NCBI GenBank assembly: GCA_947626755.1
Contig: CANQTP010000008.1
Span: 14,786 to 78,785 of the forward strand
Source of the DNA: an uncultured Clostridia bacterium
GTDB taxonomy: Bacteria; Bacillota; Clostridia; Oscillospirales; Ruminococcaceae
Reading direction: 5' to 3'
Length of the DNA stretch: 64,000 nucleotides
Shown here: one piece after another, positions 7,297 through 24,215 of the stretch
How positions within the stretch are numbered: position 1 is the first letter of the stretch
Layout: the number at the start of each line of letters is the position of its first letter
Position numbers and translations under genes: made by a program
Notes under the pieces: generated by a model
Told to the model about the DNA's origin: nothing
Databases searched by the model: none
Seen by the model: only the letters and a program-made list of their open reading frames with translations

Positions 7297-7355
7297 TTGA
7301 CCCGCCGCATGAGCGGCAGGTCATTGTTCTCCTCTCGATCGGAATGTGTTTCTTA

Positions 7356-7763
7356 TCAGCCGCAGCCGCCGCAGGAAGCGCAGCTTCCGCTGCAGCCGCC
7401 GGGTTCTGTGGGGCAGGTCATGGGATCGTCGCCGTTGGCGGAACAGGTAATTACCATGTTTATCTGGTTCAGCATATGATCCATGGCGTTCTTGGCTTCA
7501 TTGTAAACTGCCATGTTCTTATTTGCCATGATAGTTCCGTAAAGGGACTTTATCTCATCGTCAAGAGCGGTGAGACGTTCCGCGCTTCTGTTGTCCTTGG
7601 ACATTTCGGTGTTGAGTTCCACCCTCTTGGTCTGGAATTCGCCGATAAGCTGCTGAAGCTCCTCGTCCTTGTCGTTTGCGTCCTTGGCTTTGCAGTAAGC
7701 CGCATACCTTTCATCAGCCTGAATGAGCTGACCCAGTTCTCTTGCTTTGTCGATAACGTTCAT
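7356..7763 (-). CDS. YlbF/YmcA-family regulator with Cys-rich C-terminal tail
   Basis: ELGQLIQADERYAAY..EELQQLIGEFQ pattern of the YlbF family. AAGGAG SD before ATG 7763. Tail is CSGSCASCGGCG. Confidence 0.65.
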   Translation of the reverse strand: MNVIDKARELGQLIQADERYAAYCKAKDANDKDEELQQLIGEFQTKRVELNTEMSKDNRSAERLTALDDEIKSLYGTIMANKNMAVYNEAKNAMDHMLNQINMVITCSANGDDPMTCPTEPGGCSGSCASCGGCG

Positions 7764-7790
7764 ATCAAATATCTCCTTTATAAACAATTT

Positions 7791-8192
7791 TTAAAACGAA
7801 CTCATGTGCGCGAAAATATCCGCCGCCGCGGAATGAAGGAAAAGCACTCCTTCGCCGCTGTAAAAGTATTCCCCTGCCTGCTGCCTTTTCAGCATAAGCT
7901 TTTCAAAAGCTTCTCTCTGAAGTCTTGCTTTCTCGAACTGCTCATCAAGAAGTTTCTGCCGCTCGGTGCGCAGTTCCCAGAAGTCCTTTTTCTCTTCCTT
8001 TTCGGAATTTTCCTGCTGTTTGTCCCTGTATATCTCATACAGTGTATCTTTCAGCATTTCCTCATCGGATCTTGTATCAGAACTCTCCTCAGCTTCCGCC
8101 ACAGCGTCGGCAAAGGGAGAAACTCCCGATGAAGACTCCTGTCTGACAGTATTGTAGAATCTCACAGCATCTCCTATACCCGAGATCGTCAT
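7791..8192 (-). CDS. hypothetical protein (charged, coiled-coil-like)
   Basis: 133-aa ORF with AAGGAG SD. Sits between miaB and the ylbF-like gene on the same strand. Confidence 0.5.
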   Translation of the reverse strand: MTISGIGDAVRFYNTVRQESSSGVSPFADAVAEAEESSDTRSDEEMLKDTLYEIYRDKQQENSEKEEKKDFWELRTERQKLLDEQFEKARLQREAFEKLMLKRQQAGEYFYSGEGVLFLHSAAADIFAHMSSF

Positions 8193-9668: not shown

Positions 9669-10298
9669 TCAGAACACTTTTTCCGAATTTGCAAACAAAC
9701 CCTTTATTTCCGAGGGAATACCCGACCCGCGGCGGCTGTAAAAAGCGTACTGCCTGCCCTCCCATTCAAAGAAGCAAACGGCATTTTCGGCGGTCAGCGT
9801 ATCGGTGTACTTCTCGCCGTAAGCGTACTCGGCAAAATACGGATTTTCGGCATACGGGTAGAATTCTACCCGCTCATCGGCTGTTGGATCCGCAAAATCA
9901 AAGTTCAGAACTTCCTCCGCGTGGGCATAGTAACCGCTGTCCTCATCGCTTTGGTAAACGTTTTCGCTTGAAAACAGCATAGTAACAACGTACCCCGAAC
10001 TATCCTTTTCAAGGCGGGCGTTTTCAAATCCGTAACCGTTTCCGTCAGAGATCCCGCTGATCTCAAGCGCTTCCGCCGCCATATCCTCAGTCAGTTCCTC
10101 TCCGTAAACGAACATGGTATAAGGACGGTTTATGATCCCGCCTATGCCTTTCACCGCAAAATATATTGCAAAGAACAGCACTACCGATATTGCCGTATAC
10201 AGAAAGCTCTGCTGCTTTGTGTACCTGACTCTTCCTTCCTCGCTGCCGCTTTCCTGCGCGGCAGTGGTCTCTTCGGGAATATTGTTATTATCTTCCAT
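9669..10298 (-). CDS. hypothetical membrane-anchored protein
   Basis: Single TM helix (FLYTAISVVLFFAIYFAV) after an acidic N-terminus. AGGGAG SD. Confidence 0.5.
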   Translation of the reverse strand: MEDNNNIPEETTAAQESGSEEGRVRYTKQQSFLYTAISVVLFFAIYFAVKGIGGIINRPYTMFVYGEELTEDMAAEALEISGISDGNGYGFENARLEKDSSGYVVTMLFSSENVYQSDEDSGYYAHAEEVLNFDFADPTADERVEFYPYAENPYFAEYAYGEKYTDTLTAENAVCFFEWEGRQYAFYSRRGSGIPSEIKGLFANSEKVF

Positions 10299-12619: not shown

Positions 12620-13534
12620 ATGAATACAAATATTTTGCTTGAAAGCGGAACCAACGAACTTGAACTGCTTGAATTTCAGGTGGGCGACAATAACTTTGGC
12701 ATAAATATCTCCAAAGTTGTTGAGATCATGATAAATCAGGACGTTACGCCTGTTCCTAACGCCCCGGAAGAAGTGGAGGGCGTGTTTATCCCACGTGATA
12801 AACTGATCTCCGTTATTGATCTGCATAAGGTCATTCATGTTCCCCATGAAAACTCCGGAAAGGAAATATTCATTATCTGCGAATTCAACCGCATGAACGT
12901 TGCTTTCCACGTTACAAAAGTAAAAGGCATACAGAGAATATCGTGGTCTGAGATCTCCGATCCCCCCGCTGTTGCAAACGGCACGGGAAGCGATGCTGTA
13001 GGTCTTTCCACAGGCGTTGCAAAGATAGACGACAGGATAATCATTATCCTCGACTTTGAAAAGATCGTTGCCGCTCTCAACAAGAACGTAGGTCTGGATC
13101 TGGAAGGCATCGAAAACGCTCTCCGTCCCAACGAAGCAGTGGGCAACAAGAGAATTGTCGTTGCGGACGATTCCAAATTCCTCAATAAGATGATAACCGA
13201 GTCCCTCAATAACATAGGTTTCCATAATATAGTATCCTTCGGAAACGGCGAGGACGCCTGGAATTACATATCCCAGTTCAAGGACAGCACAGACGTTACT
13301 TCTCATATCGCCTGCGTTATCAGCGATATTGAAATGCCTAAGATGGACGGCCACAGGCTCACAAAGCTTATCAAGGACGATAATACCCTTAAAAAGATAC
13401 CTGTACTGCTGTTCTCCTCCCTCATAAACGAACAGATGATAGCCAAGGGAAAAACTGTCGGCGCGGACGGTCAGTTCTCCAAGCCACAGATAACCGAACT
13501 CATAAACTACCTTACCGCTCTGCTTTCTCATTGA
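12620..13534 (+). CDS. cheV: chemotaxis protein CheV (CheW domain + receiver domain)
   Basis: N-terminal CheW-like region (ELLEFQVGDNNFGINISKV), C-terminal receiver (VVADDS..ISDIEMPKMDG..SS). GGAGGAGG SD. Confidence 0.85.
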   Translation: MNTNILLESGTNELELLEFQVGDNNFGINISKVVEIMINQDVTPVPNAPEEVEGVFIPRDKLISVIDLHKVIHVPHENSGKEIFIICEFNRMNVAFHVTKVKGIQRISWSEISDPPAVANGTGSDAVGLSTGVAKIDDRIIIILDFEKIVAALNKNVGLDLEGIENALRPNEAVGNKRIVVADDSKFLNKMITESLNNIGFHNIVSFGNGEDAWNYISQFKDSTDVTSHIACVISDIEMPKMDGHRLTKLIKDDNTLKKIPVLLFSSLINEQMIAKGKTVGADGQFSKPQITELINYLTALLSH

Positions 13535-13553
13535 CATAAAAAGGTAATATAAA

Positions 13554-13710
13554 ATAGCATTAAATGATAAACAAAAGACAGGACGAGCCCTGATCTTTCA
13601 GGCAGGATCTTATGTTTTATCACTTATGCAAGCGATGATCGGGAGACCGTGTTCAAAGAAGCTGTTGTATGCTTCAGAAGCAATACGGTCTCAAGGTATT
13701 TACAGGCAAT
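13554..13710 (+). pseudogene. decayed 5' fragment of a fourth TIR-domain paralog
   Basis: Aligns by eye to 13744-13935 of the next gene. ATG has become ATA, an internal stretch is replaced or shortened, a 1-nt deletion sits in the GTTTTTATCA run, and the copy is truncated after the GLRVF-equivalent codons. Confidence 0.7.
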
Positions 13711-13745
13711 GTATTTCAGAATAAACATATCAGGAGTAGGATAGT

Positions 13746-15410
13746 ATGGCATTAGATGATAAACAAAAAATGGAAAGAGCCGAGTATCTTGGAAATAATC
13801 TCAAAGTAACGGAGTGTTCCCGCGGAGAACATTACGTTTTTATCAGTTACGCAAGCGATGACTGGGAGACCGTGTTCAAAAAGGCTGTCGTACCGCTTCA
13901 GGAGCAGTACGGTCTGCGGGTGTTTGCGGATAAGGCTTTTGACAAGGTAAATGACAAGTGGATCGTTCCAATGCTGAGAAATGTGCGCGGCTCAGATCTG
14001 ATGATCGCTTTTGTAAGCCAGAAATACATTGAAAGCTATGCTTGCTTTCTGGAGATCCTCACTGCCGTAAACAGCAGGAAGCAGATCATTTTTGTTGCGC
14101 TTGAAAATGATCTGCGTATCGGCGCAAGCGATGAACAGCCTGCCATAGAACGGGGCGCAAAGATCGAACTTCTTAACCAAGGCGCAAATATCACTACTAT
14201 CACAAACAATACTTCAAATGACATTCTGCGCGCTATGAAATCCGCTTTTACAAGCATTTCAACATTTATCGAGCAGGATTCGCTGTCAAAATACGATATT
14301 TCGGACGCGTTTATCAACTTTTTCCGCGATGCTGCCATAAATAAGAAAACAATAAACGATCTTATTGCGCTCCAAAGCACTATAAGATCAGTAAGCAAGA
14401 ATGTTTTTGCATTTGATGCACAACCTGCCGATATACCTGCTGCACCGCAGGATACATATTTTACCCTGCCCGATGCACCCTCTCCGACTGCACCCGCACC
14501 GACTGCACCCGCACCGACTGCGCCTGCTCCGACCGCGCCGCAGGAAACGTCTGTTCCCCTGACCGATGCACCCGCTCCGAATGAACAGCCTGCCGAATAC
14601 ACGCAGGCAAACAGATCGTACAATGACGGCGGAATACAGCCTGCCGCAGTTTATCCCGCAGCAGTACAAAACAATGAAAAACTCAAAAGAATAGCTATTA
14701 TATCGGTACTGAGCTTTCTGGTCGTTCTGTTGGCGATATTATTAATAGTATCATTATCCAAAAAGCCGGCAGATGATATACCCGCATCGGCAGAAGTATC
14801 CGAAACAACAGCGGCAGAAATAACAGAAGCTGCCACAGAGGAAGCAAAGCCTGAAAATGGTTCTTACACCGACGAGGAAGGGAACTATTATGAAGGCGAT
14901 CTGTTAAACGGCATACCCAACGGTCAGGGTACTATGACATATACAAACGGCGATGTATATACAGGCGAATGGAAAGACGGTTTAAAAAGCGGTCAGGGGA
15001 CTATAACATATGCAAGCGGTACTGTATATGAAGGCGAGTGGAAAGATGACAAAAGAAACGGTCAGGGTACTTACACATGGGCAAGCGGCAATATATACGT
15101 CGGCGAATTTAAAGATAATGTCAGAAACGGTCATGGTACTGTAACATGGACAGACGGTACTGTATATGAAGGCGAATGGAAAGATGATAAAGCAAACGGT
15201 CAGGGTACTATGACATATGCAGAGGGCGATGTATATGAGGGCGAATGGAAAGATGACAATAAAAACGGTCAGGGTATTTATACATTTGCAAACGGCGATA
15301 TATATGAAGGCGAATGGAAAGATGACAGTAAAAACGGTCATGGTACTTACATATTTGCAAATGGTGAAGTCTGGTCGGGACAGTGGGAAAACGGCGAATT
15401 TATAGGCTGA
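13746..15410 (+). CDS. TIR-domain protein, single TM helix, C-terminal MORN repeats (paralog 1)
   Basis: YVFISYASDDWE, GLRVFADKAF and DLMIAFVSQKYIESYACFLEIL give a TIR_2-like pattern with Glu103. TM at about aa 316-336. Eight YxGEWKDxxxNGxG MORN units. AGGAG SD. Confidence 0.8.
   Translation: MALDDKQKMERAEYLGNNLKVTECSRGEHYVFISYASDDWETVFKKAVVPLQEQYGLRVFADKAFDKVNDKWIVPMLRNVRGSDLMIAFVSQKYIESYACFLEILTAVNSRKQIIFVALENDLRIGASDEQPAIERGAKIELLNQGANITTITNNTSNDILRAMKSAFTSISTFIEQDSLSKYDISDAFINFFRDAAINKKTINDLIALQSTIRSVSKNVFAFDAQPADIPAAPQDTYFTLPDAPSPTAPAPTAPAPTAPAPTAPQETSVPLTDAPAPNEQPAEYTQANRSYNDGGIQPAAVYPAAVQNNEKLKRIAIISVLSFLVVLLAILLIVSLSKKPADDIPASAEVSETTAAEITEAATEEAKPENGSYTDEEGNYYEGDLLNGIPNGQGTMTYTNGDVYTGEWKDGLKSGQGTITYASGTVYEGEWKDDKRNGQGTYTWASGNIYVGEFKDNVRNGHGTVTWTDGTVYEGEWKDDKANGQGTMTYAEGDVYEGEWKDDNKNGQGIYTFANGDIYEGEWKDDSKNGHGTYIFANGEVWSGQWENGEFIG
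14487..14540 (+). repeat. 15-bp coding tandem repeat (TAPAP linker), about 3.6 copies
   Basis: ACTGCACCCGCACCG appears twice, followed by diverged copies. Encodes PTAPAPTAPAPTAPAPTAP. Confidence 0.85.
14883..15395 (+). repeat. 69-bp periodic coding repeats (MORN units)
   Basis: Recurrent TATGAAGGCGAATGGAAAGATGA...AACGGTCAGGGTAC blocks with a 23-codon period. Confidence 0.8.
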
Positions 15411-15508
15411 TCCCCCATATTAAAGCAAACGGCATTAAAAATCACATAATTTGTTAATTTACAAAATATCTGCTTTATTGCAGTTAAAAATTATTAGGAG
15501 TAACAAAA

Positions 15509-17143
15509 ATGGCATTAACTAATGCTCAGAAGATCGAACGAGCAAACTATCTTGAAAAAAATCTTACCGTAACGGAATGTTCTTCCGGAGAACCGTATGT
15601 ATTCATCAGTTACGCAAGCGATAACTGGGAAACTGTATTCAAGGGCGGCGTTGTGCCCCTTCAGAAACAATACGGTCTGAGAGTGTTTGCGGATAAGGCT
15701 TTTGACAAGGTAAACGATAAATGGATCGTTCCTATGCTGAGAAATATACGCGGCGCGGATCTGATGATAGCTTTCGTCAGTCAGAGCTACATAGAAAGCT
15801 ATGCTTGCTTTCTGGAACTTCTTACTGCTATAAACAGCAAGAAACAGATAATATTCGTTTCTCTTGACAATGATCTGCACGTATGCACAAATAATGAAAT
15901 GCCCGCCATCGAACGCGGGGTAAAAAACGAGCTTCTTAACCAAGGCGCAAATATAATTACAAGCACAAACAATACTTCAAATGACATCATGCGTGCCATA
16001 AAGTTCGCCTTTACAAGCATTTCAACATTTATCGAGCAGGATTCACTTTCAAAATACGATATTTCGGACGCATTTATCAATTTCTTCGATGATGCTTCCA
16101 TTAACAGGAAAACTATCGACGATCTGAATGCTCTTCAAAGCACGATCCGTTCCATCAGTGAGGGCGTTTTCAGAAACGCTGATGAGGAAATTGTCGAGCC
16201 TGCCGCAGTTGAGGAACTCCCGCAGGAAAATGATATTTCCGACATAACAGAAAATAATTCAGGCACTGCATTTTCGGGAGAAATTGCTGCCGACAGCGGA
16301 AAGACAAAGAAAATAATTATCATATCCGCGGCGGCTCTTGCGGTTATCATACTTGCAATATTACTGATAGTATCGTTTTCCGGAGGATCATCGGAAGATG
16401 ACGAACTTTCCGCATCTGTGAGCGAGATCACTTCATCGGCGGCAATATCATCATTTACGCTGCCTGTGTCCGAAACAACAACGGAGATAAAAAAAGAAAA
16501 AGGCTCTTTTACCAATGAAAACGGAGATCTCTACGAAGGCGAAATGCTGGACGGGATCCCAAACGGTCAGGGTACTATGAAATACGCAGACGGCACAGTT
16601 TATGAAGGAAACTGGATCGACGGCAAAAGAGAAGGTACGGGTTCTTACGGCGGAGCAGATCCGAGCGGTGTGGAGTTCATCTATTCGGGCGACTGGGAAA
16701 ATGACGAGAGAAACGGTCAGGGCACCGAAACATGGGTCAACGGCGAGTCCTACACGGGAAACTGGGCGGACGGCATGAAAAACGGCAAAGGAACTACAAC
16801 ATATGCAAACGGTGACGTTTACGAAGGTGAGTACAAGAACGGCGTAATAAACGGTCAGGGTACTTACATCTGGGCAAACGGCGACATATACGAAGGCGAG
16901 TTCAGAGACAATATCAAAAACGGTCACGGCACTATGACATTTGCCGACGGAGATGCTTTTGAAGGCGAATTCATAAACGGCGACATTTACCAAGGCACCT
17001 ATACAGGAAAAGACACCGACGGGTTAAGCTTTGTTTACGAAGGCGAATTCAGCAGCGGTCTCCCCAACGGTCAGGGCACCTGCACATGGGAGGACGGCAA
17101 TGTAAAATCAGGAACATGGAAAAACGGCGTTTTTATAAGCTGA
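15509..17143 (+). CDS. TIR-domain protein, single TM helix, C-terminal MORN repeats (paralog 2)
   Basis: N-terminal 220 aa collinear with paralog 1 (YVFISYASDNWE..ESYACFLELL). TM at about aa 268-290, flanked by KTKK on the N side and SSEDDE on the C side. MORN units are less regular. Confidence 0.8.
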   Translation: MALTNAQKIERANYLEKNLTVTECSSGEPYVFISYASDNWETVFKGGVVPLQKQYGLRVFADKAFDKVNDKWIVPMLRNIRGADLMIAFVSQSYIESYACFLELLTAINSKKQIIFVSLDNDLHVCTNNEMPAIERGVKNELLNQGANIITSTNNTSNDIMRAIKFAFTSISTFIEQDSLSKYDISDAFINFFDDASINRKTIDDLNALQSTIRSISEGVFRNADEEIVEPAAVEELPQENDISDITENNSGTAFSGEIAADSGKTKKIIIISAAALAVIILAILLIVSFSGGSSEDDELSASVSEITSSAAISSFTLPVSETTTEIKKEKGSFTNENGDLYEGEMLDGIPNGQGTMKYADGTVYEGNWIDGKREGTGSYGGADPSGVEFIYSGDWENDERNGQGTETWVNGESYTGNWADGMKNGKGTTTYANGDVYEGEYKNGVINGQGTYIWANGDIYEGEFRDNIKNGHGTMTFADGDAFEGEFINGDIYQGTYTGKDTDGLSFVYEGEFSSGLPNGQGTCTWEDGNVKSGTWKNGVFIS

Positions 17144-17182
17144 TAAAATAACTCACAGAACACAAAACGGAGGTAATTTAAA

Positions 17183-18472
17183 ATGGCACTGAGCGAAGAG
17201 CAAAAGAAAGAACGATCAGAATATCTTAATGAACACCTGAAAATTACAAAATTTGATGACGAAAAACAATATGTGTTTATAAGCTATGCAAGCGACAACT
17301 GGGAGGTCGTGTTCAAGAATGTAGTAGTACCGCTTCAGGAGCAATACGGTCTGAGAGTATATGCAGATAAGGCTTTCGATCATGAGAATAACAAGTGGAC
17401 CACATCTATGCTCAGAAATATACTCTACTCGGATCTGATGATAGCATTTTTCAGTCAGAAATACATAGAAAGCTATGCTTGCTTTCTGGAACTTCTCACG
17501 GCTGTAAATAACAAAAAACAGATAGTTTTTGTTTTTATCGACAACGATCTGCGTAATGGAGATACCGCCGATAAGCCTGTCATTGAATCGAACGTCAAGA
17601 AAGAGATACACAAACAAGGCAACGTCCTTACCATAAAAACAGATAATACTTCAAATGATATTATGCGGGCTATGGTATCCGCTTACACAAATATTTCTTC
17701 GCTTTTACAGCAGGATTCGCTGTCAAAATATGATATTTCCGATGCTTTTATAAACTTTTTACGTGATGCATCTATCAACCAAAAAAATATATATGACATG
17801 AATGCGCTGAAAAATACTATTATGTCTGTAAGTGAAAGTGTTTTTGCGCCTGTTGAGCATTATCTGTCGGAGCCGGAAGATAATGTTCAGGATATAAAGG
17901 AAATCGCATCTGATCCGATGCCTGAAAACACCAATAATGAGCAGGAGCCTGCAATAAATGATAAAATTATCGGAAAATGCCCCTTCTGCGGAAAAAATGT
18001 ATATGAAGAAAACGAAAAATATTTCTCCTGTGAGGACGAAAAAGAAGGCTGTAAATTTAAAATATGGAAACACAGCGACTATTACCTAACCGATATTACC
18101 CGTGATCTTGCAAGAACGCTCCTTGAAGGAAAACCTGTCACGCGTGTTGAGAAAAAAAATAATAGTGAATTTGAATATGTTCTTGACAAGGAAAACGGCA
18201 AATTGATAAAAGTGTTTTATGGAAAATGTCACGTATGCGGGAAAAATGTATATGAACACGAAAAAGATTTCTCCTGTAATGGCAAAAAAGACGGCTGTGT
18301 TAAAATATGGAAACACAACAATGATTACCGAACCGATATTACCCGTGATCTTGCAAGGACACTTCTTGAAGGAAAAACGATCAAGCTGGAAAAAATAAAT
18401 GATGGCAAAATTTATGAAACTGAAATTATACTTGATCCAACAACAGGCAGCCTTAAACAAATTTCAAAGTAA
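17183..18472 (+). CDS. TIR-domain protein with two C-terminal C4 zinc-ribbon repeats of topoisomerase C-terminal-repeat type (paralog 3)
   Basis: Same N-terminal module. No TM helix. Two copies of CxxCGKNVYE..FSC..GC.KIWKH...TDITRDLARTLLEGK. GGAGG SD. Confidence 0.75.
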   Translation: MALSEEQKKERSEYLNEHLKITKFDDEKQYVFISYASDNWEVVFKNVVVPLQEQYGLRVYADKAFDHENNKWTTSMLRNILYSDLMIAFFSQKYIESYACFLELLTAVNNKKQIVFVFIDNDLRNGDTADKPVIESNVKKEIHKQGNVLTIKTDNTSNDIMRAMVSAYTNISSLLQQDSLSKYDISDAFINFLRDASINQKNIYDMNALKNTIMSVSESVFAPVEHYLSEPEDNVQDIKEIASDPMPENTNNEQEPAINDKIIGKCPFCGKNVYEENEKYFSCEDEKEGCKFKIWKHSDYYLTDITRDLARTLLEGKPVTRVEKKNNSEFEYVLDKENGKLIKVFYGKCHVCGKNVYEHEKDFSCNGKKDGCVKIWKHNNDYRTDITRDLARTLLEGKTIKLEKINDGKIYETEIILDPTTGSLKQISK

Positions 18473-18493
18473 TTGAATTTTTGCAATATGCTT

Positions 18494-18527
18494 GTCCCCC
18501 GATGAATTTCGGGGGACATTTTTATTT
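18494..18527 (+). terminator. rho-independent terminator closing the TIR array
   Basis: GTCCCCC, GATGAATTTC loop, GGGGGAC, then ATTTTTATTT. Confidence 0.75.
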
Positions 18528-21815: not shown

Positions 21816-24146
21816 TCAGAAAACTTTCTTTTTAAGAATTACTGCGGAAACTGCAAGTGCCGCAAACGTTACAACTATTGCAGCGGGAGCAGCGGAAGTT
21901 TCGCTTTCTTCGTAAACGCCTGCGCCCGAGGAAACGTCCTCGCCGTAAGCTTCTTCGTCAAATACGATAACGTAATCGGAAGCGTGCGTCATTGTGAAGT
22001 CTGCAATGCCGTCCTCTACCTTGGAGCTGCCCACAAAATCAAATTTGCCGTCATGGAACCAGTAGAGATTTGCAAATTGTCCGTTGTACTTCTTGTTTAT
22101 GGGAATATTTACAACTGCTTTGAAGCCGAAATCTCCGTTATGTCTGATGGAGAACTGGAAAGTATCCTTGTCCTTTGCAATAGTTTCAAGCTGCTTTGCG
22201 GAAGCTTTCTTTGTCTTGAGTGTTACGCCCAGATCAACTTTCTGTGCATCTTTAACATCAAGACCGTTTACTTCCCATGTAACGCCGTTTGAAAGTTCAA
22301 ACTCAACGTCAACATCTTTTCCTGCAATATCGGCAAGAGTATCCTTGGAAACGCTTGTGCTTTCTTTCAGGGAAACAGTTTTCTTTTCGCTTTCGGAAGT
22401 GCCTGCGGCAGCAGTATCAGCGGAATTATTGCCGATAACAACAGCCGGCATACCTACGCTGTGAGGACTTGCGGCAGGAGCAGAAGGAACAGCGGGAGAA
22501 ATATCATCTCCATAGCCAAGTGCAAGAGTTACCGTGTCTCCCTCTTTCATAGCCGCAAGAGCTTCGTTATTTGAAGAATCTGCAAGACTTACTATCATAT
22601 AACTTATATTATCGATAACATCACTGTTTGCGACCTGTTTATTCAAAGCTTCATCGTCAAGATCATAGTAATAATAACCTTTTGTTTTCAACGACCGAAT
22701 ACGCGCATAGTCATCATTATCATAAATATCTTTGCCATTTACAATAATTCTTAATCCAACAGCAAAGTTGTCACTGCCAAGACCTAACGTATCGGTCAAA
22801 TACTGTTCTGTCTTTAATTCTATTCCTTTATACAGTGTTTTCAATTCACTGAATGTGGTCATGCCGTTAATGATACCCGGAAGATCGACCCTCTCCTCAT
22901 ATCCGACCGTGCCTGACGTTATTTTTTCTCCGTCATCTGTTGTATACGTTCTGCTATTCGGAGAATATGTCAGTGCATAATTGCCTTCGGGAAGATTTAT
23001 TGTATAATTGCTTCTGTTGCTCGTATCAACATTTACCCAAAGCAAAGAACCTAAAGGCAATTTAGCAATTTCCGGATAGACAACAGAAGTTTTTGCCATA
23101 ATTGCAGCATTGCACATAATATCGGTTACTACTGCATCTGTCGGTATATCGGTATCATTCAGATCACAGTAATATTCTTTACCCGAAAACAATGGAACCG
23201 TATCTCCGATAGAAACTGAATAAAATTTGCCATCTGACGTGTAATTAACAAAGAAATTGAATGTAAAGTCTTCAGCGGCAAAATTTCCGGAGTTGAACTT
23301 GTATGCAGGCAGCTGAACACCGATCTGATCAAATTTTTCAAGTATTTCACCATAGGTAGTTTTACCATATTCAATAAAACTATATTTGCTTATAAATTCT
23401 ACCTCATCTCTTTTAGCAAAAAATTTACATGAGTCCGACTCTCCGTCGCCGCCTTCTATGAGGTTCAGGCAAAATCCGTTGGAATTTGTATAAAGATCAG
23501 GAAGGAAATAAGGAGCATATTTAATATTATTCGGATCATTTACAGTAAGTTTAGATCCCACAGGCAGAGCCGCAACGTGAGGATTATCCGAAGATTTTTG
23601 TGTACAAATAACATTGCAGTACAATCCTTCAAATTCCGCTCCTTCGGGGAAACCCGGATCCTTCACGGATACAGAATAGCTGCTGCCGTCAAACAGCGGG
23701 AATACATCTCCGATCTGCAAAGATATAGGTTCATCTTTATAAATGCAATTCACAAAAAAATTGCAGCTAAATGTTCCCGCTCCGAAACCTTCAGAATCGC
23801 ATATATACTTTGGAAGATCTCCTTTGATAGTTGAATATACTTTTTTAAAATCTGCGAATGTTCCAAAATTTTCATCAAGTCCTATATCAATTATCTTTTT
23901 GAAATATTTAACATCTTCTCCTCCGTCAATGGTCTTATCAGCTTTAAGTTCCATGTCAAAACTGCCTGAAAAAAGATCAGACAAATTATAGGTCAGACTG
24001 CCGGCTTCTACCGGTACTTCCTCACCTGTTGTTATGTTTTCAGTTTCAGCAGTTACTGCATCTTCTGCACTTACAGGCATGATCGCCGCTAACGATAATG
24101 TCATTACCGCTGCTGTTATTCCCGCAAGCAATTTTTTTAATTTCAT
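21816..24146 (-). CDS. secreted, C-terminally membrane-anchored surface protein with three divergent internal domain repeats
   Basis: Signal peptide MKLKKLLAGITAAVMTLSLAAIMPVSA, C-terminal TM AAIVVTFAALAVSAVILKKKVF. GAAGGA SD before ATG 24146. Confidence 0.6.
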   Translation of the reverse strand: MKLKKLLAGITAAVMTLSLAAIMPVSAEDAVTAETENITTGEEVPVEAGSLTYNLSDLFSGSFDMELKADKTIDGGEDVKYFKKIIDIGLDENFGTFADFKKVYSTIKGDLPKYICDSEGFGAGTFSCNFFVNCIYKDEPISLQIGDVFPLFDGSSYSVSVKDPGFPEGAEFEGLYCNVICTQKSSDNPHVAALPVGSKLTVNDPNNIKYAPYFLPDLYTNSNGFCLNLIEGGDGESDSCKFFAKRDEVEFISKYSFIEYGKTTYGEILEKFDQIGVQLPAYKFNSGNFAAEDFTFNFFVNYTSDGKFYSVSIGDTVPLFSGKEYYCDLNDTDIPTDAVVTDIMCNAAIMAKTSVVYPEIAKLPLGSLLWVNVDTSNRSNYTINLPEGNYALTYSPNSRTYTTDDGEKITSGTVGYEERVDLPGIINGMTTFSELKTLYKGIELKTEQYLTDTLGLGSDNFAVGLRIIVNGKDIYDNDDYARIRSLKTKGYYYYDLDDEALNKQVANSDVIDNISYMIVSLADSSNNEALAAMKEGDTVTLALGYGDDISPAVPSAPAASPHSVGMPAVVIGNNSADTAAAGTSESEKKTVSLKESTSVSKDTLADIAGKDVDVEFELSNGVTWEVNGLDVKDAQKVDLGVTLKTKKASAKQLETIAKDKDTFQFSIRHNGDFGFKAVVNIPINKKYNGQFANLYWFHDGKFDFVGSSKVEDGIADFTMTHASDYVIVFDEEAYGEDVSSGAGVYEESETSAAPAAIVVTFAALAVSAVILKKKVF

Positions 24147-24215
24147 ACAACAATCCTTCTTTCTGATATTTTTTGGAGTTTCCCCCAAATGTCATATATA
24201 TTTCTATTATACAGC

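What the first reader, a model, noticed from the sequence alone, without database searches (positions are those of the whole stretch)
13554..18527. Tandem array of three TIR-domain paralogs with swapped C-terminal modules and no known partner effector
Three consecutive same-strand genes (13746-15410, 15509-17143, 17183-18472) share an N-terminal module of about 220 aa that aligns without indels. Nucleotide similarity between copies 1 and 2 is obvious by eye (for example 13841-14100 against 15604-15863). The module shows the bacterial TIR pattern: YVFISYASDxWE, GLRVFADKAF, then DLMIAFxSQxYIESYACFLE(I/L)L. That last stretch fits the S-x2-Y-x2-S-x-C-x2-E motif whose Glu is the NAD+-cleaving residue in TIR NADases; here it is E103 in all three (codon 14052-14054 in copy 1). 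The C-terminal halves differ: TM helix plus MORN repeats twice, a double zinc ribbon once. Multiple tandem TIR genes are typical of Thoeris (ThsB), but no ThsA-like SIR2/SLOG/macro gene or other known effector is adjacent. The neighbours are cheV and spoIIGA-sigE-sigG. Each gene has its own SD and one terminator (18494-18527) closes the array. This looks like a self-contained set of TIR sensor-effectors and is the best candidate in the window for an undescribed defence or signalling locus.
Basis: partly seen in the sequence, partly recalled or inferred. Interest (0 to 1): 0.8.

Follow-up and report, generated by a model that had tools for sequence, protein, structure and literature searches.

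The report
Three TIR sensor genes missing their channel partner
Three neighbouring genes encode enzymes of the TIR immune-signalling type with different sensor tails; in related gut bacteria the same gene sits beside an ion-channel-like protein whose RyR domain is of a kind shown to bind TIR-made signals, which points to an undescribed bacterial signalling pair, but that partner is absent from this window.

Summary
Three same-strand genes (13746-15410, 15509-17143, 17183-18472) share a gap-free 221-aa N-terminal module. The module scores above the Pfam TIR_2 cut-off, folds as a TIR domain, and keeps the catalytic Glu (E103), which is invariant in all 30 homologues aligned. Copies 1 and 2 continue with a linker, one TM helix and seven MORN repeats. 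Copy 3 has two Cys4 repeats distantly related to the topoisomerase III C-terminal repeat.

The main new result comes from relatives. In 19 of 32 loci from other Clostridia, the orthologous TIR gene lies next to a ~460-aa membrane protein I call c1. c1 has a channel-like two-TM region, two RCK-like domains and a RyR domain. In the reverse test, 27 of 40 well-flanked c1-homologue loci carry a TIR gene within 3 kb, in at least four different architectures. Two 2026 preprints show that phage RyR domains bind or cleave TIR-made cyclic ADP-ribose isomers.

The window has no c1 homologue. I therefore read the array as orphan, ThsB-like TIR sensors of a Thoeris-like TIR-to-RyR-channel module. The flanks are housekeeping genes, so an anti-phage role is unproven.

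The parts
13531..13560 (+). Sigma-70-like promoter match (TTGACA-18-TAGCAT) just after the cheV stop and upstream of the relic. It could be the promoter of the array.
   Evidence: Consensus scan, 10 of 12 matches. This is weak evidence, because the number of sites found equals the number expected from shuffles.
13544..13721 (+). Decayed 5' fragment of a fourth TIR copy. The start codon is ATG>ATA, and there is an internal deletion and frameshifts. It is closest to copy 1.
   Evidence: Repeat families D5, D6 and D7, with 87% identity to copy 1 over 55 nt. DNA alignment. The TIR profile hits the reading frame 13571-13741 at E=2.2e-5.
13746..15410 (+). TIR paralogue 1 (554 aa). The N-module is aa 1-221 (13746-14408), followed by a Pro/Ala-rich linker, a TM helix at aa 316-334 (14691-14747) and seven MORN repeats (about 14859-15407).
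   Evidence: ORF; TIR_2 46.1 bits and MORN 176 bits; TM with a K/R-rich N-terminal flank; 69-nt repeat units.
14052..14054 (+). Codon GAG for Glu103, the predicted catalytic glutamate. The equivalent codons are 15815-15817 in copy 2 and 17489-17491 in copy 3.
   Evidence: Sequence. E103 aligns with the Glu of RPS4 'CVRE' and RPP1 'CLDE'. It is invariant in 30 of 30 and 29 of 29 homologues.
15509..17143 (+). TIR paralogue 2 (544 aa). The N-module is followed by a TM helix at aa 269-287 (16313-16369) and MORN repeats (about 16508-17140).
   Evidence: It is the sister of copy 1 in the N-module tree, with dN/dS 0.108 and dS 1.08.
17183..18472 (+). TIR paralogue 3 (429 aa). It has the N-module, no TM helix, and two Cys4 zinc-ribbon-type repeats (about 17972-18220 and 18221-18469) related to the topoisomerase III C-terminal repeat.
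   Evidence: families D8, D10, D11. It is the only one of 30 family members without a TM segment. It is 39% identical over 90 aa to a PF13342-bearing topoisomerase III fragment, E=3e-12.
18493..18527 (+). Intrinsic-terminator-like hairpin (10 pairs, 7 of them G-C) plus a T-run, closing the array.
   Evidence: sequence.

Best explanation
The locus is an array of three old, selectively maintained paralogues, plus one decayed fragment, of a Clostridia-specific TIR protein family. Each protein has the same cytoplasmic 'head': an N-terminal helix, a TIR domain with the catalytic Glu, and a helical subdomain. Each carries a different C-terminal sensor. Copies 1 and 2 are single-pass membrane proteins whose MORN repeats are predicted to face outwards. 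Copy 3 is soluble and has two topoisomerase-III-type zinc-ribbon repeats, a domain type that binds nucleic acid in topoisomerases.

Inferred mechanism: a cue at the sensor drives TIR self-association. The TIR then cleaves or cyclises NAD+ into an ADP-ribose-derived nucleotide. That signal is read by the RyR domain of an RCK-gated, P-loop-channel-like membrane protein (c1). In most related genomes c1 is encoded directly upstream of the TIR gene, often together with a DHH phosphoesterase that may clear the signal. Opening of the channel would change ion flux or membrane potential, causing growth arrest, abortive infection or a stress response.

This window contains no c1 gene. The three genes are therefore best read as orphan sensors, analogous to extra ThsB genes, that feed an effector encoded elsewhere in the genome. 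If no such effector exists, they would act by NAD+ depletion alone.

Shown here: domain identities, the TIR fold, the position and conservation of the Glu, purifying selection, and the two-way TIR-c1 gene association. Inferred: enzymatic activity, the identity of the signal, RyR binding in c1, channel function, action in trans, and the biological role.
For: TIR identity: TIR_2 is above the cut-off in all three proteins. The AF2 model has pLDDT 88 and pTM 0.88. The top Foldseek hits are the TIRs of RPS4, RPP1 and L6, SPARTA TIR-APAZ, AbTir and ThsB.

Catalytic Glu: it aligns with the RPS4 and RPP1 Glu and is invariant in the family.

Functional copies: dN/dS is 0.09-0.12 with dS of 1.1-2.8.

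Partner, forward test: c1 is within 2.3 kb of the TIR gene in 19 of 32 species-level loci. In 16 of them it is directly upstream on the same strand, while the flanking genes differ between loci.

Partner identity: c1 carries RyR PF02026 at 34-40 bits. Its AF2 model shows TM1, a short helix, TM2, two Rossmann-like domains and a helical RyR domain. Foldseek matches the GsuK RCK channel, the TrkA and CASTOR/DMI1 gating rings, and human RyR3 Repeat12.

Partner, reverse test: 27 of 40 well-flanked c1-homologue loci, with c1 identity down to 26%, have a TIR gene within 3 kb. Those TIR genes include TIR-TM-MORN, a 514-aa TIR protein, TIR-TPR, and TIR-NB-ARC-TPR, sometimes with a PD-(D/E)XK nuclease. 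An Arcobacter plasmid carries TrkA_N + RyR + DUF4062-TPR next to a type I R-M system and an integrase.

Ligand logic: phage RyR domains bind or cleave 2'cADPR and 3'cADPR through HxxW, His and Lys/Asp residues (PMC13232231; 10.64898/2026.06.04.730250). c1 keeps LEHIRW, an invariant His in 'RIH', and EEKxKD.

Orphan and linked copies coexist in one genome: Parablautia muri has L001 (orphan) and L008 (linked), and MAG MGBC108922 has L027, L030 and L031. Orphan copies are scattered among linked ones in the N-module tree.
Against: No c1 or RyR homologue occurs in the 64-kb window: tblastn at 1e-3 found nothing, and hmmsearch --max gave a best E of 0.24. Action in trans is therefore pure inference for this organism.

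No NADase or signal chemistry has been measured for this family.

The c1 loop between its TM helices ('GSTESG') is not a canonical K+ selectivity filter, and Pfam does not call an ion-channel domain in c1.

The flanks of the window array and of 118 neighbour genes in relatives are housekeeping genes, not defence islands. PADLOC has no significant model for the TIR proteins, c1 or the DHH protein.

The MORN-outside topology rests only on hydropathy and charge bias.

About a third of well-flanked c1 loci have no TIR gene nearby.
Confidence: 0.5

Rival explanations
1. Self-contained sensor-effector NADases. Each protein senses its cue through its own C-terminal module and itself kills or arrests the cell by depleting NAD+. 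No partner is needed. The c1 neighbour in relatives would be an optional accessory.
For: No effector gene is present in the window. About 10 assessable loci in other species also lack c1 and have only housekeeping neighbours. TIR domains that deplete NAD+ as effectors are established in other systems, as summarised in 10.64898/2025.12.03.692087. The catalytic Glu is conserved.
Against: The TIR-c1 gene association runs both ways and spans several TIR architectures and deep divergence. Orphan copies are phylogenetically mixed with c1-linked copies rather than forming a separate class. At least two genomes hold both kinds.
Confidence: 0.25
2. A physiological, non-immune envelope-signalling pathway. 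The TIR-TM-MORN proteins would be receptor-like sensors of cell-wall or external cues. They would signal through an NAD+-derived nucleotide to the RyR/RCK channel to adjust ion homeostasis, and the DHH phosphoesterase would reset the signal. The chemistry is the same as in the best explanation, but the role is different.
For: The context is housekeeping in the window and around homologues, with no defence-island enrichment. There are no PADLOC hits. Neither component was found on viral contigs. The N-module is under strong purifying selection with old duplications. A DHH/DHHA1 gene recurs in 10 loci, and PPK2 in 3.
Against: Distant c1 homologues pair with STAND-type TIR-NB-ARC-TPR proteins and PD-(D/E)XK nucleases, which are typical immune architectures, and with an R-M system and integrase on an Arcobacter plasmid. 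Sensor tails and MORN copy number vary, and paralogues with decaying copies are found. Those features are typical of arms-race genes. The genomic position is not conserved between species.
Confidence: 0.3
3. Non-enzymatic TIR scaffolds. The TIR head would mediate only protein-protein assembly, as in animal TLR adaptors, or would act as a host-directed Tcp-like effector.
For: Bacterial TIR proteins that interfere with host TLR signalling are known (BtpA appears among the fold hits). The organisms are gut commensals.
Against: The catalytic Glu and the surrounding SxxYxxSxxCxxE motif are invariant. The TIR is N-terminal with no signal peptide and lies on the K/R-rich, predicted cytoplasmic side of the TM helix. 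No secretion genes are nearby.
Confidence: 0.07

Closest known systems
Thoeris anti-phage systems (ThsB TIR sensor plus a signal-activated effector; types I-XI in Yirmiya et al. 2025, bioRxiv 10.64898/2025.12.03.692087)
   Same: It has a TIR protein with a catalytic Glu. Several TIR paralogues sit side by side, as with multiple thsB genes. In relatives there is a two-gene operon of a TIR gene and a membrane protein carrying a domain (RyR) shown to bind TIR-made cADPR isomers. Membrane and ion-channel effectors already exist among the Thoeris types.
   Different: There is no effector gene in this window. The TIR proteins are large (429-1066 aa) with a TM helix and MORN, Sel1 or zinc-ribbon tails, rather than short ThsB proteins. 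The partner's RyR/RCK architecture is not named in that paper or in its supplements as held. The context is not a defence island. No phage data exist.
Type X Thoeris (ThsB + ion-channel effector ThsK; Bacillus sp. BH32, Vibrio)
   Same: [quoted passage not shown]
   Different: Type X TIR domains show no detectable similarity to this N-module (BLASTP E=50) and belong to a cluster shared with types II and VII. I could not obtain a ThsK sequence to compare with c1.
Phage RyR-domain anti-Thoeris proteins (RyDEP, PMC13232231; RyR Tad, 10.64898/2026.06.04.730250)
   Same: They share the Pfam family PF02026 with the partner protein c1. The ligand-contact residues (HxxW, His, Lys/Asp) are conserved in c1. 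c1's RyR region also hits phage PHROG families.
   Different: Those proteins are small, soluble and phage-encoded, and act as sponges or glycosidases that switch signalling off. c1 is host-encoded, fused to a channel-like TM domain and RCK domains, and operonic with the TIR gene, which suggests a receptor or effector role.
Animal Toll-like / IL-1 receptors, and the cADPR-ryanodine receptor axis with MORN-repeat junctophilins
   Same: It works like a single-pass receptor with a repeat ectodomain and a cytoplasmic TIR. In relatives a TIR enzyme, a RyR-repeat domain on a cation-channel-like protein, and MORN repeats occur in one gene pair.
   Different: The orientation is reversed, with the TIR at the N-terminus (type II). 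Only the TIR, RyR-repeat and MORN modules are homologous, not the proteins as wholes. No calcium or cADPR data exist. The resemblance may be convergent use of common modules.
RCK-gated prokaryotic cation channels (GsuK, MthK, TrkA/TrkH, CASTOR/DMI1)
   Same: The c1 model has TM1, a short helix, TM2 and two Rossmann/RCK-like domains. Foldseek gives probability 1.0 to the GsuK channel and to the TrkA and CASTOR gating rings. The split Arcobacter version has a Pfam TrkA_N domain.
   Different: There is no canonical TVGYG filter ('GSTESG' instead). Pfam finds no Ion_trans_2 or TrkA_N domain in the Clostridia c1. c1 has an additional C-terminal RyR domain.

Membership tests
TIR domain superfamily (Pfam TIR_2, PF13676) | Profile match above the curated gathering score | tested here: met
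   46.1, 39.2 and 46.5 bits against a cut-off of 28. All 30 aligned homologues also match.
TIR domain superfamily (Pfam TIR_2, PF13676) | Flavodoxin-like alpha/beta TIR fold | tested here: met
   AF2 pLDDT 88, strands at 31-35, 85-90 and 113-118. Foldseek top hits are all TIR domains, e.g. RPS4 at E=1.4e-4 with target-normalised TM-score 0.64.
Enzymatic (NAD+-cleaving) TIRs | Catalytic glutamate at the (W/A)CxxE position of helix alpha-C | tested here: met
   E103 aligns with the Glu of RPS4 'CVRE' and RPP1 'CLDE'. It is invariant in the family. The codon is GAG at 14052-14054.
Enzymatic (NAD+-cleaving) TIRs | Measured NADase or cyclase activity that depends on the Glu | not testable with these tools
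   This needs purified wild-type and E103Q protein with NAD+ and LC-MS.
Thoeris (ThsB + effector) | An effector gene with a signal-binding domain adjacent to the TIR gene | tested here: not met
   Window: the neighbours are mutS, a radical-SAM gene, dnaB/dnaI-like genes, cheV, spoIIGA, sigE, sigG and a GNAT gene, and there is no RyR/c1 homologue. Relatives: the feature is met in 19 of 32 loci by the RyR-domain protein c1.
Thoeris (ThsB + effector) | Enrichment next to known defence genes | tested here: not met
   A Pfam census of 118 flanking genes in L001-L032 found housekeeping families, and only DHH recurs. Neighbours of orphan loci are housekeeping genes. The sample is small and the census was not run against a defence-specific library, so this is a weak negative.
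Thoeris (ThsB + effector) | Phage-triggered signal production and protection | not testable with these tools
   This needs phage challenge and lysate LC-MS.
Type X Thoeris (ion-channel effector ThsK) | TIR belongs to the type II/VII/X ThsB cluster | tested here: not met
   BLASTP of the N-module against the Bacillus sp. BH32 type X TIR domain gave E=50.
Type X Thoeris (ion-channel effector ThsK) | Effector is homologous to ThsK | not tested
   No ThsK sequence was obtainable. The plasmid hits to type X TIRs were all type II (macro-domain) loci.
MORN repeat proteins (PF02493) | Tandem 23-aa YxGxW...GxG repeats matching the profile | tested here: met
   Seven stretches each, at 176 and 156 bits, and a 69-nt DNA periodicity.
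Topoisomerase C-terminal repeat (Toprim_Crpt, PF13342) | Profile match, or clear homology to members | tested here: inconclusive
   There is no hmmscan hit even at E<=10. On the other side, copy 3's C-terminus is 39% identical over 90 aa (E=3e-12) to a PF13342-annotated topoisomerase III fragment, and there is a weak NCBIfam topoisomerase III hit at E=0.0055.
RyR domain (PF02026), for the partner c1 in related loci | Profile match and conserved ligand-contact residues | tested here: met
   30-40 bits against a cut-off of 27.4. The H and W of 'LEHIRW', the His of 'RIH', and E/K/K of 'EEKxKD' are invariant. The fold matches human RyR3 Repeat12 at probability 1.0.

The most novel reading that the evidence does not exclude
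The TIR-TM-MORN receptor and the RyR/RCK channel-like protein form a prokaryotic pathway that runs from a surface receptor, through an NAD+-derived cyclic nucleotide, to a RyR-domain-gated cation channel. This would be a bacterial counterpart, and possibly an evolutionary source of modules, for the animal cADPR-ryanodine-receptor axis, with MORN repeats as in junctophilins. It would operate as chromosomal physiology or immunity in gut Clostridia. The window's three paralogues would be alternative input receptors (two for the envelope, one for nucleic acid) feeding one unlinked channel.
Probability: 0.22. Interest if true: 0.85.

Novelty: new variant of a known kind. Interest (0 to 1): 0.62.

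Why it matters
TIR enzymes that make cyclic ADP-ribose signals are now known in bacterial, plant and animal immunity. In 2026, phage RyR-domain proteins were shown to bind or destroy those signals. What has not been described, in any paper I could search, is a host protein that uses a RyR domain to receive the signal. The gene pairing found here (diverse TIR proteins next to a RyR-domain, RCK-gated, channel-like protein) nominates exactly such a receptor. It also gives a simple bacterial system for testing whether RyR repeats are genuine cADPR-isomer sensors, which is still debated for animal ryanodine receptors. In addition, the window's array shows how one signalling head is recombined with different sensors: an outward-facing MORN ectodomain or a cytoplasmic zinc-ribbon domain. 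This is a receptor-like TIR architecture not covered by current defence-finder models.

Tried and rejected
PADLOC on the three proteins gave only weak, non-diagnostic hits: AbiP at E=4.7e-5 for copy 3 and PDC-S66 at E=1.3e-3 for copy 1. PADLOC on c1 and the DHH protein gave nothing significant.

NCBIfam gave only sub-threshold hits, including retron-TIR at E=0.0065 and topoisomerase III at E=0.0055.

PF13342 was not detected in copy 3, even when the C-terminal region was searched alone at E<=10. A PDB sequence search with copy 3's C-terminus gave only chance WD40/TAF5 matches.

I rejected a functional link to sporulation (spoIIGA-sigE-sigG) or chemotaxis (cheV). None of the 32 loci from other species has those neighbours.

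I rejected a prophage or mobile-element origin. The flanks have no integrase or transposase, composition matches the surroundings, and viral-contig scans for the N-module and for c1 found nothing. One unannotated 8-kb 'Bacteriophage sp.' faecal contig carries a 34%-identical homologue; I did not pursue it.

I tried to retrieve a type X Thoeris locus so that I could compare ThsK with c1, using type X TIR sequences from Table S1 against plasmids. This returned only type II (macro-domain) loci.

I looked for an alternative partner gene in the loci that lack c1 and found only housekeeping genes.

I could not test presence or absence of the array between cheV and spoIIGA in close relatives.

Full report
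OBSERVATION

Their first ~222 residues align without a single gap. At the DNA level, the 5' 300 nt of copies 2 and 3 are 80% and 72% identical to copy 1.

Each gene has its own Shine-Dalgarno sequence: AGGAG, AGGAG and GGAGG, 9-11 nt upstream of the start. A strong hairpin plus T-run at 18493-18527 follows copy 3. Codon 14052-14054 is GAG, which encodes Glu103.

It is a degraded copy of the first ~210 nt of a fourth paralogue. Its start codon has changed from ATG to ATA, and it has a ~30-nt deletion and frameshifts. It is 87% identical to copy 1 over 55 nt, and a family profile still detects it at E=2.2e-5.

WHAT THE PROTEINS ARE

All three match Pfam TIR_2 above the gathering score, at 46, 39 and 46 bits against a cut-off of 28. 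Copies 1 and 2 each have seven MORN repeats, scoring 176 and 156 bits.

An AlphaFold2 model of the N-module is confident (pLDDT 88, pTM 0.88). It shows a beta-alpha-beta core at residues 31-118, preceded by an N-terminal helix and followed by a four-helix extension at residues 136-216. Foldseek against the PDB returns TIR domains at the top of the list and through most of it: RPS4, RPP1, L6, SNC1, SPARTA TIR-APAZ, a B. cereus TIR protein, AbTir and ThsB.

Sequence alignment to RPS4 and RPP1 places C100-F-L-E103 on their 'CVRE' and 'CLDE' motifs, which is the position of the catalytic glutamate. E103 and the surrounding S91, Y94, S97 and C100 are invariant in 30 aligned family members and in 29 database homologues.

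Copies 1 and 2 each have one strongly hydrophobic segment, at aa 316-334 and 269-287. Its N-terminal flank is rich in Lys and Arg, which predicts a cytoplasmic TIR and extracytoplasmic MORN repeats.

Copy 3 has no TM segment and is the only one of the 30 members without one. It carries two ~82-aa Cys4 repeats. These do not match PF13342 by hmmscan. However, they have very few relatives in 5.8 billion proteins, and two of the four hits are topoisomerase III fragments. One of those is annotated with PF13342, and the pairwise comparison gives 39% identity over 90 aa at E=3e-12.

EVOLUTION OF THE ARRAY

Pairwise dN/dS across the N-modules is 0.09-0.12, with synonymous divergence of 1.1-2.8. These are old duplicates kept under purifying selection, not recent copies or pseudogenes. 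Copies 1 and 2 are sisters, and copy 3 is the most divergent N-module in the whole tree.

The identical array occurs in four metagenome contigs of the same organism. In one of them, copy 1 lacks exactly one 23-aa MORN unit.

THE FAMILY AND ITS CONTEXT

An exhaustive search of 1.84 billion representative proteins found 407 relatives at E<=1e-3, 172 at E<=1e-10 and 38 at E<=1e-30. In nearly all of them the matching region is at the N-terminus of a 350-1200-aa protein.

In one genome per species, 32 loci from Lachnospiraceae, Oscillospiraceae and related MAGs, and from Parablautia muri and P. intestinalis, encode an N-module that is 69-77% identical. In those loci the gene is usually single, and none lies next to cheV or spoIIGA. 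The C-termini of 30 aligned members are MORN in 24 and Sel1/TPR in 3. Copy 3's zinc-ribbon tail is unique. Every member except copy 3 has at least one TM segment; the MORN and Sel1/TPR members have a single one.

THE KEY FINDING: A CONSERVED PARTNER IN RELATIVES

I clustered all neighbouring genes across the 32 loci. A ~460-aa protein, which I call c1, lies within 2.3 kb of the TIR gene in 19 loci. In 16 of these it is directly upstream on the same strand, with gaps as short as 12 nt, while the other flanking genes differ from locus to locus. A DHH/DHHA1 phosphoesterase recurs in 10 loci, and PPK2 in 3.

c1 carries a C-terminal RyR domain (PF02026, 34-40 bits against a cut-off of 27.4). Its AF2 model (pLDDT 86) shows TM1, a short helix, a loop and a long TM2, followed by two Rossmann-type domains and a helical RyR domain. 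Its best long-range structural matches are the RCK-gated GsuK channel, the TrkA and CASTOR/DMI1 gating rings, and the human RyR3 Repeat12 domain.

The reverse test also holds. I collected 80 metagenome loci encoding c1 homologues, with identities from 72% down to 26%. Forty of them have at least 2.5 kb on both sides. Of those 40, 15 have a TIR gene within 300 nt, 24 within 1.5 kb and 27 within 3 kb.

The partners are not one TIR family. They include TIR-TM-MORN, a 514-aa TIR protein flanked by a second c1-like paralogue, TIR-TPR (1121 aa) and TIR-NB-ARC/AAA-TPR (787-826 aa). Some loci have a PD-(D/E)XK nuclease in between. On an Arcobacter plasmid a split version (TrkA_N protein + RyR protein) sits next to a DUF4062-TPR protein, beside a type I R-M system and an integrase. 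From memory, not tested here, DUF4062 is a TIR-like domain.

WHY A RyR DOMAIN MATTERS

Two 2026 preprints report on phage-encoded PF02026 domains. [quoted passage not shown] The contact residues are an HxxW pair, a His and a Lys/Asp pair (PMC13232231; 10.64898/2026.06.04.730250).

c1 keeps 'LEHIRW', an invariant His in 'RIH', and 'EEKxKD'. Neither preprint describes a host RyR-domain effector.

The systematic Thoeris survey by Yirmiya et al. (10.64898/2025.12.03.692087) lists types I-XI and 29 putative effector classes. These include an ion-channel effector (type X) whose signal is unknown. The paper does not mention RyR, PF02026 or MORN in its text or in the supplements as held, although two of the large tables are truncated there. 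The survey removed TIRs found in standalone proteins and required a defence score above 0.4. Type X TIR domains show no similarity to this N-module. I could not retrieve a ThsK sequence to compare with c1.

THE WINDOW ITSELF

No c1 or RyR homologue exists anywhere in the 64 kb. tblastn found nothing, and an unfiltered profile search gave a best E of 0.24. Genes within 7 kb of the array are mutS, ylbF-like, a radical-SAM MiaB-like gene, dnaB/dnaI-like genes, cheV, spoIIGA, sigE, sigG and a GNAT gene.

The window array is therefore a set of orphan TIR genes. Orphan and c1-linked copies coexist in single genomes: P. muri has L001 and L008, and MAG MGBC108922 has L027, L030 and L031. Orphans are scattered among linked copies in the N-module tree. 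In orphan loci the immediate neighbours are housekeeping genes, and no alternative partner recurs.

INTERPRETATION

I consider the following most likely, at about 0.5. The N-module is the signal-generating half of a Thoeris-like pair of a TIR protein and a RyR-domain channel. The variable tails are sensors: an envelope-facing MORN or Sel1 domain, or a nucleic-acid-binding zinc ribbon. The window's three genes are additional sensors feeding an effector encoded elsewhere.

The stand-alone NADase reading remains viable, at about 0.25.

The biological role is open. Distant c1-TIR pairs have immune-type architectures, namely STAND NTPases and nucleases, and one sits next to an R-M system and an integrase. 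Against that, the Clostridia loci and this window sit in housekeeping contexts. They have no defence-database matches and were not found on viral contigs.

NOVELTY AND SCORE

TIR signalling systems with membrane or channel effectors are known, so this is a new variant of a known kind rather than a new category. Two things appear to be undescribed: the receptor-like TIR-TM-MORN architecture, and a host RyR-domain, RCK channel-like partner.

Interest is moderate to high (0.62). The lead is specific and testable, and it connects to very recent work. However, the partner is absent from this window and no biochemistry exists for the family.

Noticed in passing
window 13544-13721: Decayed 5' fragment of a fourth TIR paralogue between cheV and copy 1 (ATG>ATA, a deletion and frameshifts). 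It is closer to copy 1 (87% over 55 nt) than copy 2 is. A sigma-70-like promoter match at 13531-13560 precedes it, so the relic may now form part of the array's 5' leader.
   Followed up: partly
L033 6633-8228 versus window 13746-15410: In one metagenome contig of the same organism, copy 1 is 531 aa instead of 554 aa and lacks exactly one 23-aa (69-nt) MORN unit. This is either genuine repeat-number variation or an assembly collapse.
   Followed up: partly
L001-L032, e.g. L025 8505-9890 and L002 8606-9988: A conserved RyR-domain, RCK/channel-like membrane protein (c1, ~460 aa) lies directly upstream of the orthologous TIR gene in most related species. It is annotated only as 'RyR domain-containing protein' or 'hypothetical' in public records.
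   Followed up: yes
L003 4484-6148, L020 7022-8563 and 8 other loci; L013/L020/L021 PPK2: A DHH/DHHA1 phosphoesterase (~520 aa, with an uncharacterised C-terminal half) recurs beside the c1-TIR pair in 10 loci, and a two-domain PPK2 in 3. The DHH protein may turn over the nucleotide signal.
   Followed up: partly
L086 2373-7371 (also L089, L090, L092, L098, L102); L103, L105, L106, L108, L113: Metagenome contigs carry a three-gene operon: a 664-aa c1-like paralogue with no Pfam match, a 514-aa TIR protein, and a 455-aa RyR-domain c1. A variant has a PD-(D/E)XK (PF14281) gene between the TIR gene and c1.
   Followed up: partly
L110 4222-6585, L049 8513-10993, L065 7447-10812: c1 homologues also sit next to TIR-NB-ARC/AAA_16-TPR (STAND, NLR-like) proteins and TIR-TPR proteins of 787-1121 aa.
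   Followed up: partly
L122 (Arcobacter sp. plasmid CP146529) 3976-7699: A split version of the module: a TrkA_N 'NAD-binding protein', a 166-aa RyR-domain protein and a DUF4062-TPR protein, flanked by a type I restriction subunit, an integrase and a recombinase.
   Followed up: partly
L057, L060, L063, L067, L069, L076, L099: A subgroup of c1 homologues has no TIR gene nearby. It is followed instead by a DUF2325 protein (94 aa) and an SNF-family sodium symporter. This may be a TIR-independent use of the RyR channel-like protein, or simply conserved gene order.
   Followed up: no
proteins P0037-P0042: Short 125-138-aa proteins covering only the first ~53% of the N-module at 74% identity are seen on many long contigs (up to 100 contigs, the longest 124 kb). 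These could be truncated TIR-only relatives or widespread pseudogene-like remnants.
   Followed up: no
window 14442-14586: The linker of copy 1 contains a Pro/Ala-rich low-complexity stretch (PTAPA repeats, with a 93-nt direct repeat) that is absent from copies 2 and 3.
   Followed up: no
window 21816-24188 (- strand): A 790-aa protein with an N-terminal signal-like segment, internally repeated halves and a C-terminal hydrophobic anchor has no Pfam match. The ORFs at 9669-10298 (-) and 7344-8132 (+) also have no Pfam match.
   Followed up: no
MT836912.1 3189-3812 (phage collection hit H14): An unannotated 8.3-kb 'Bacteriophage sp.' contig from human faeces encodes a 34%-identical N-module homologue. 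IMG/VR scans found no others, so it may be a misclassified bacterial fragment.
   Followed up: no
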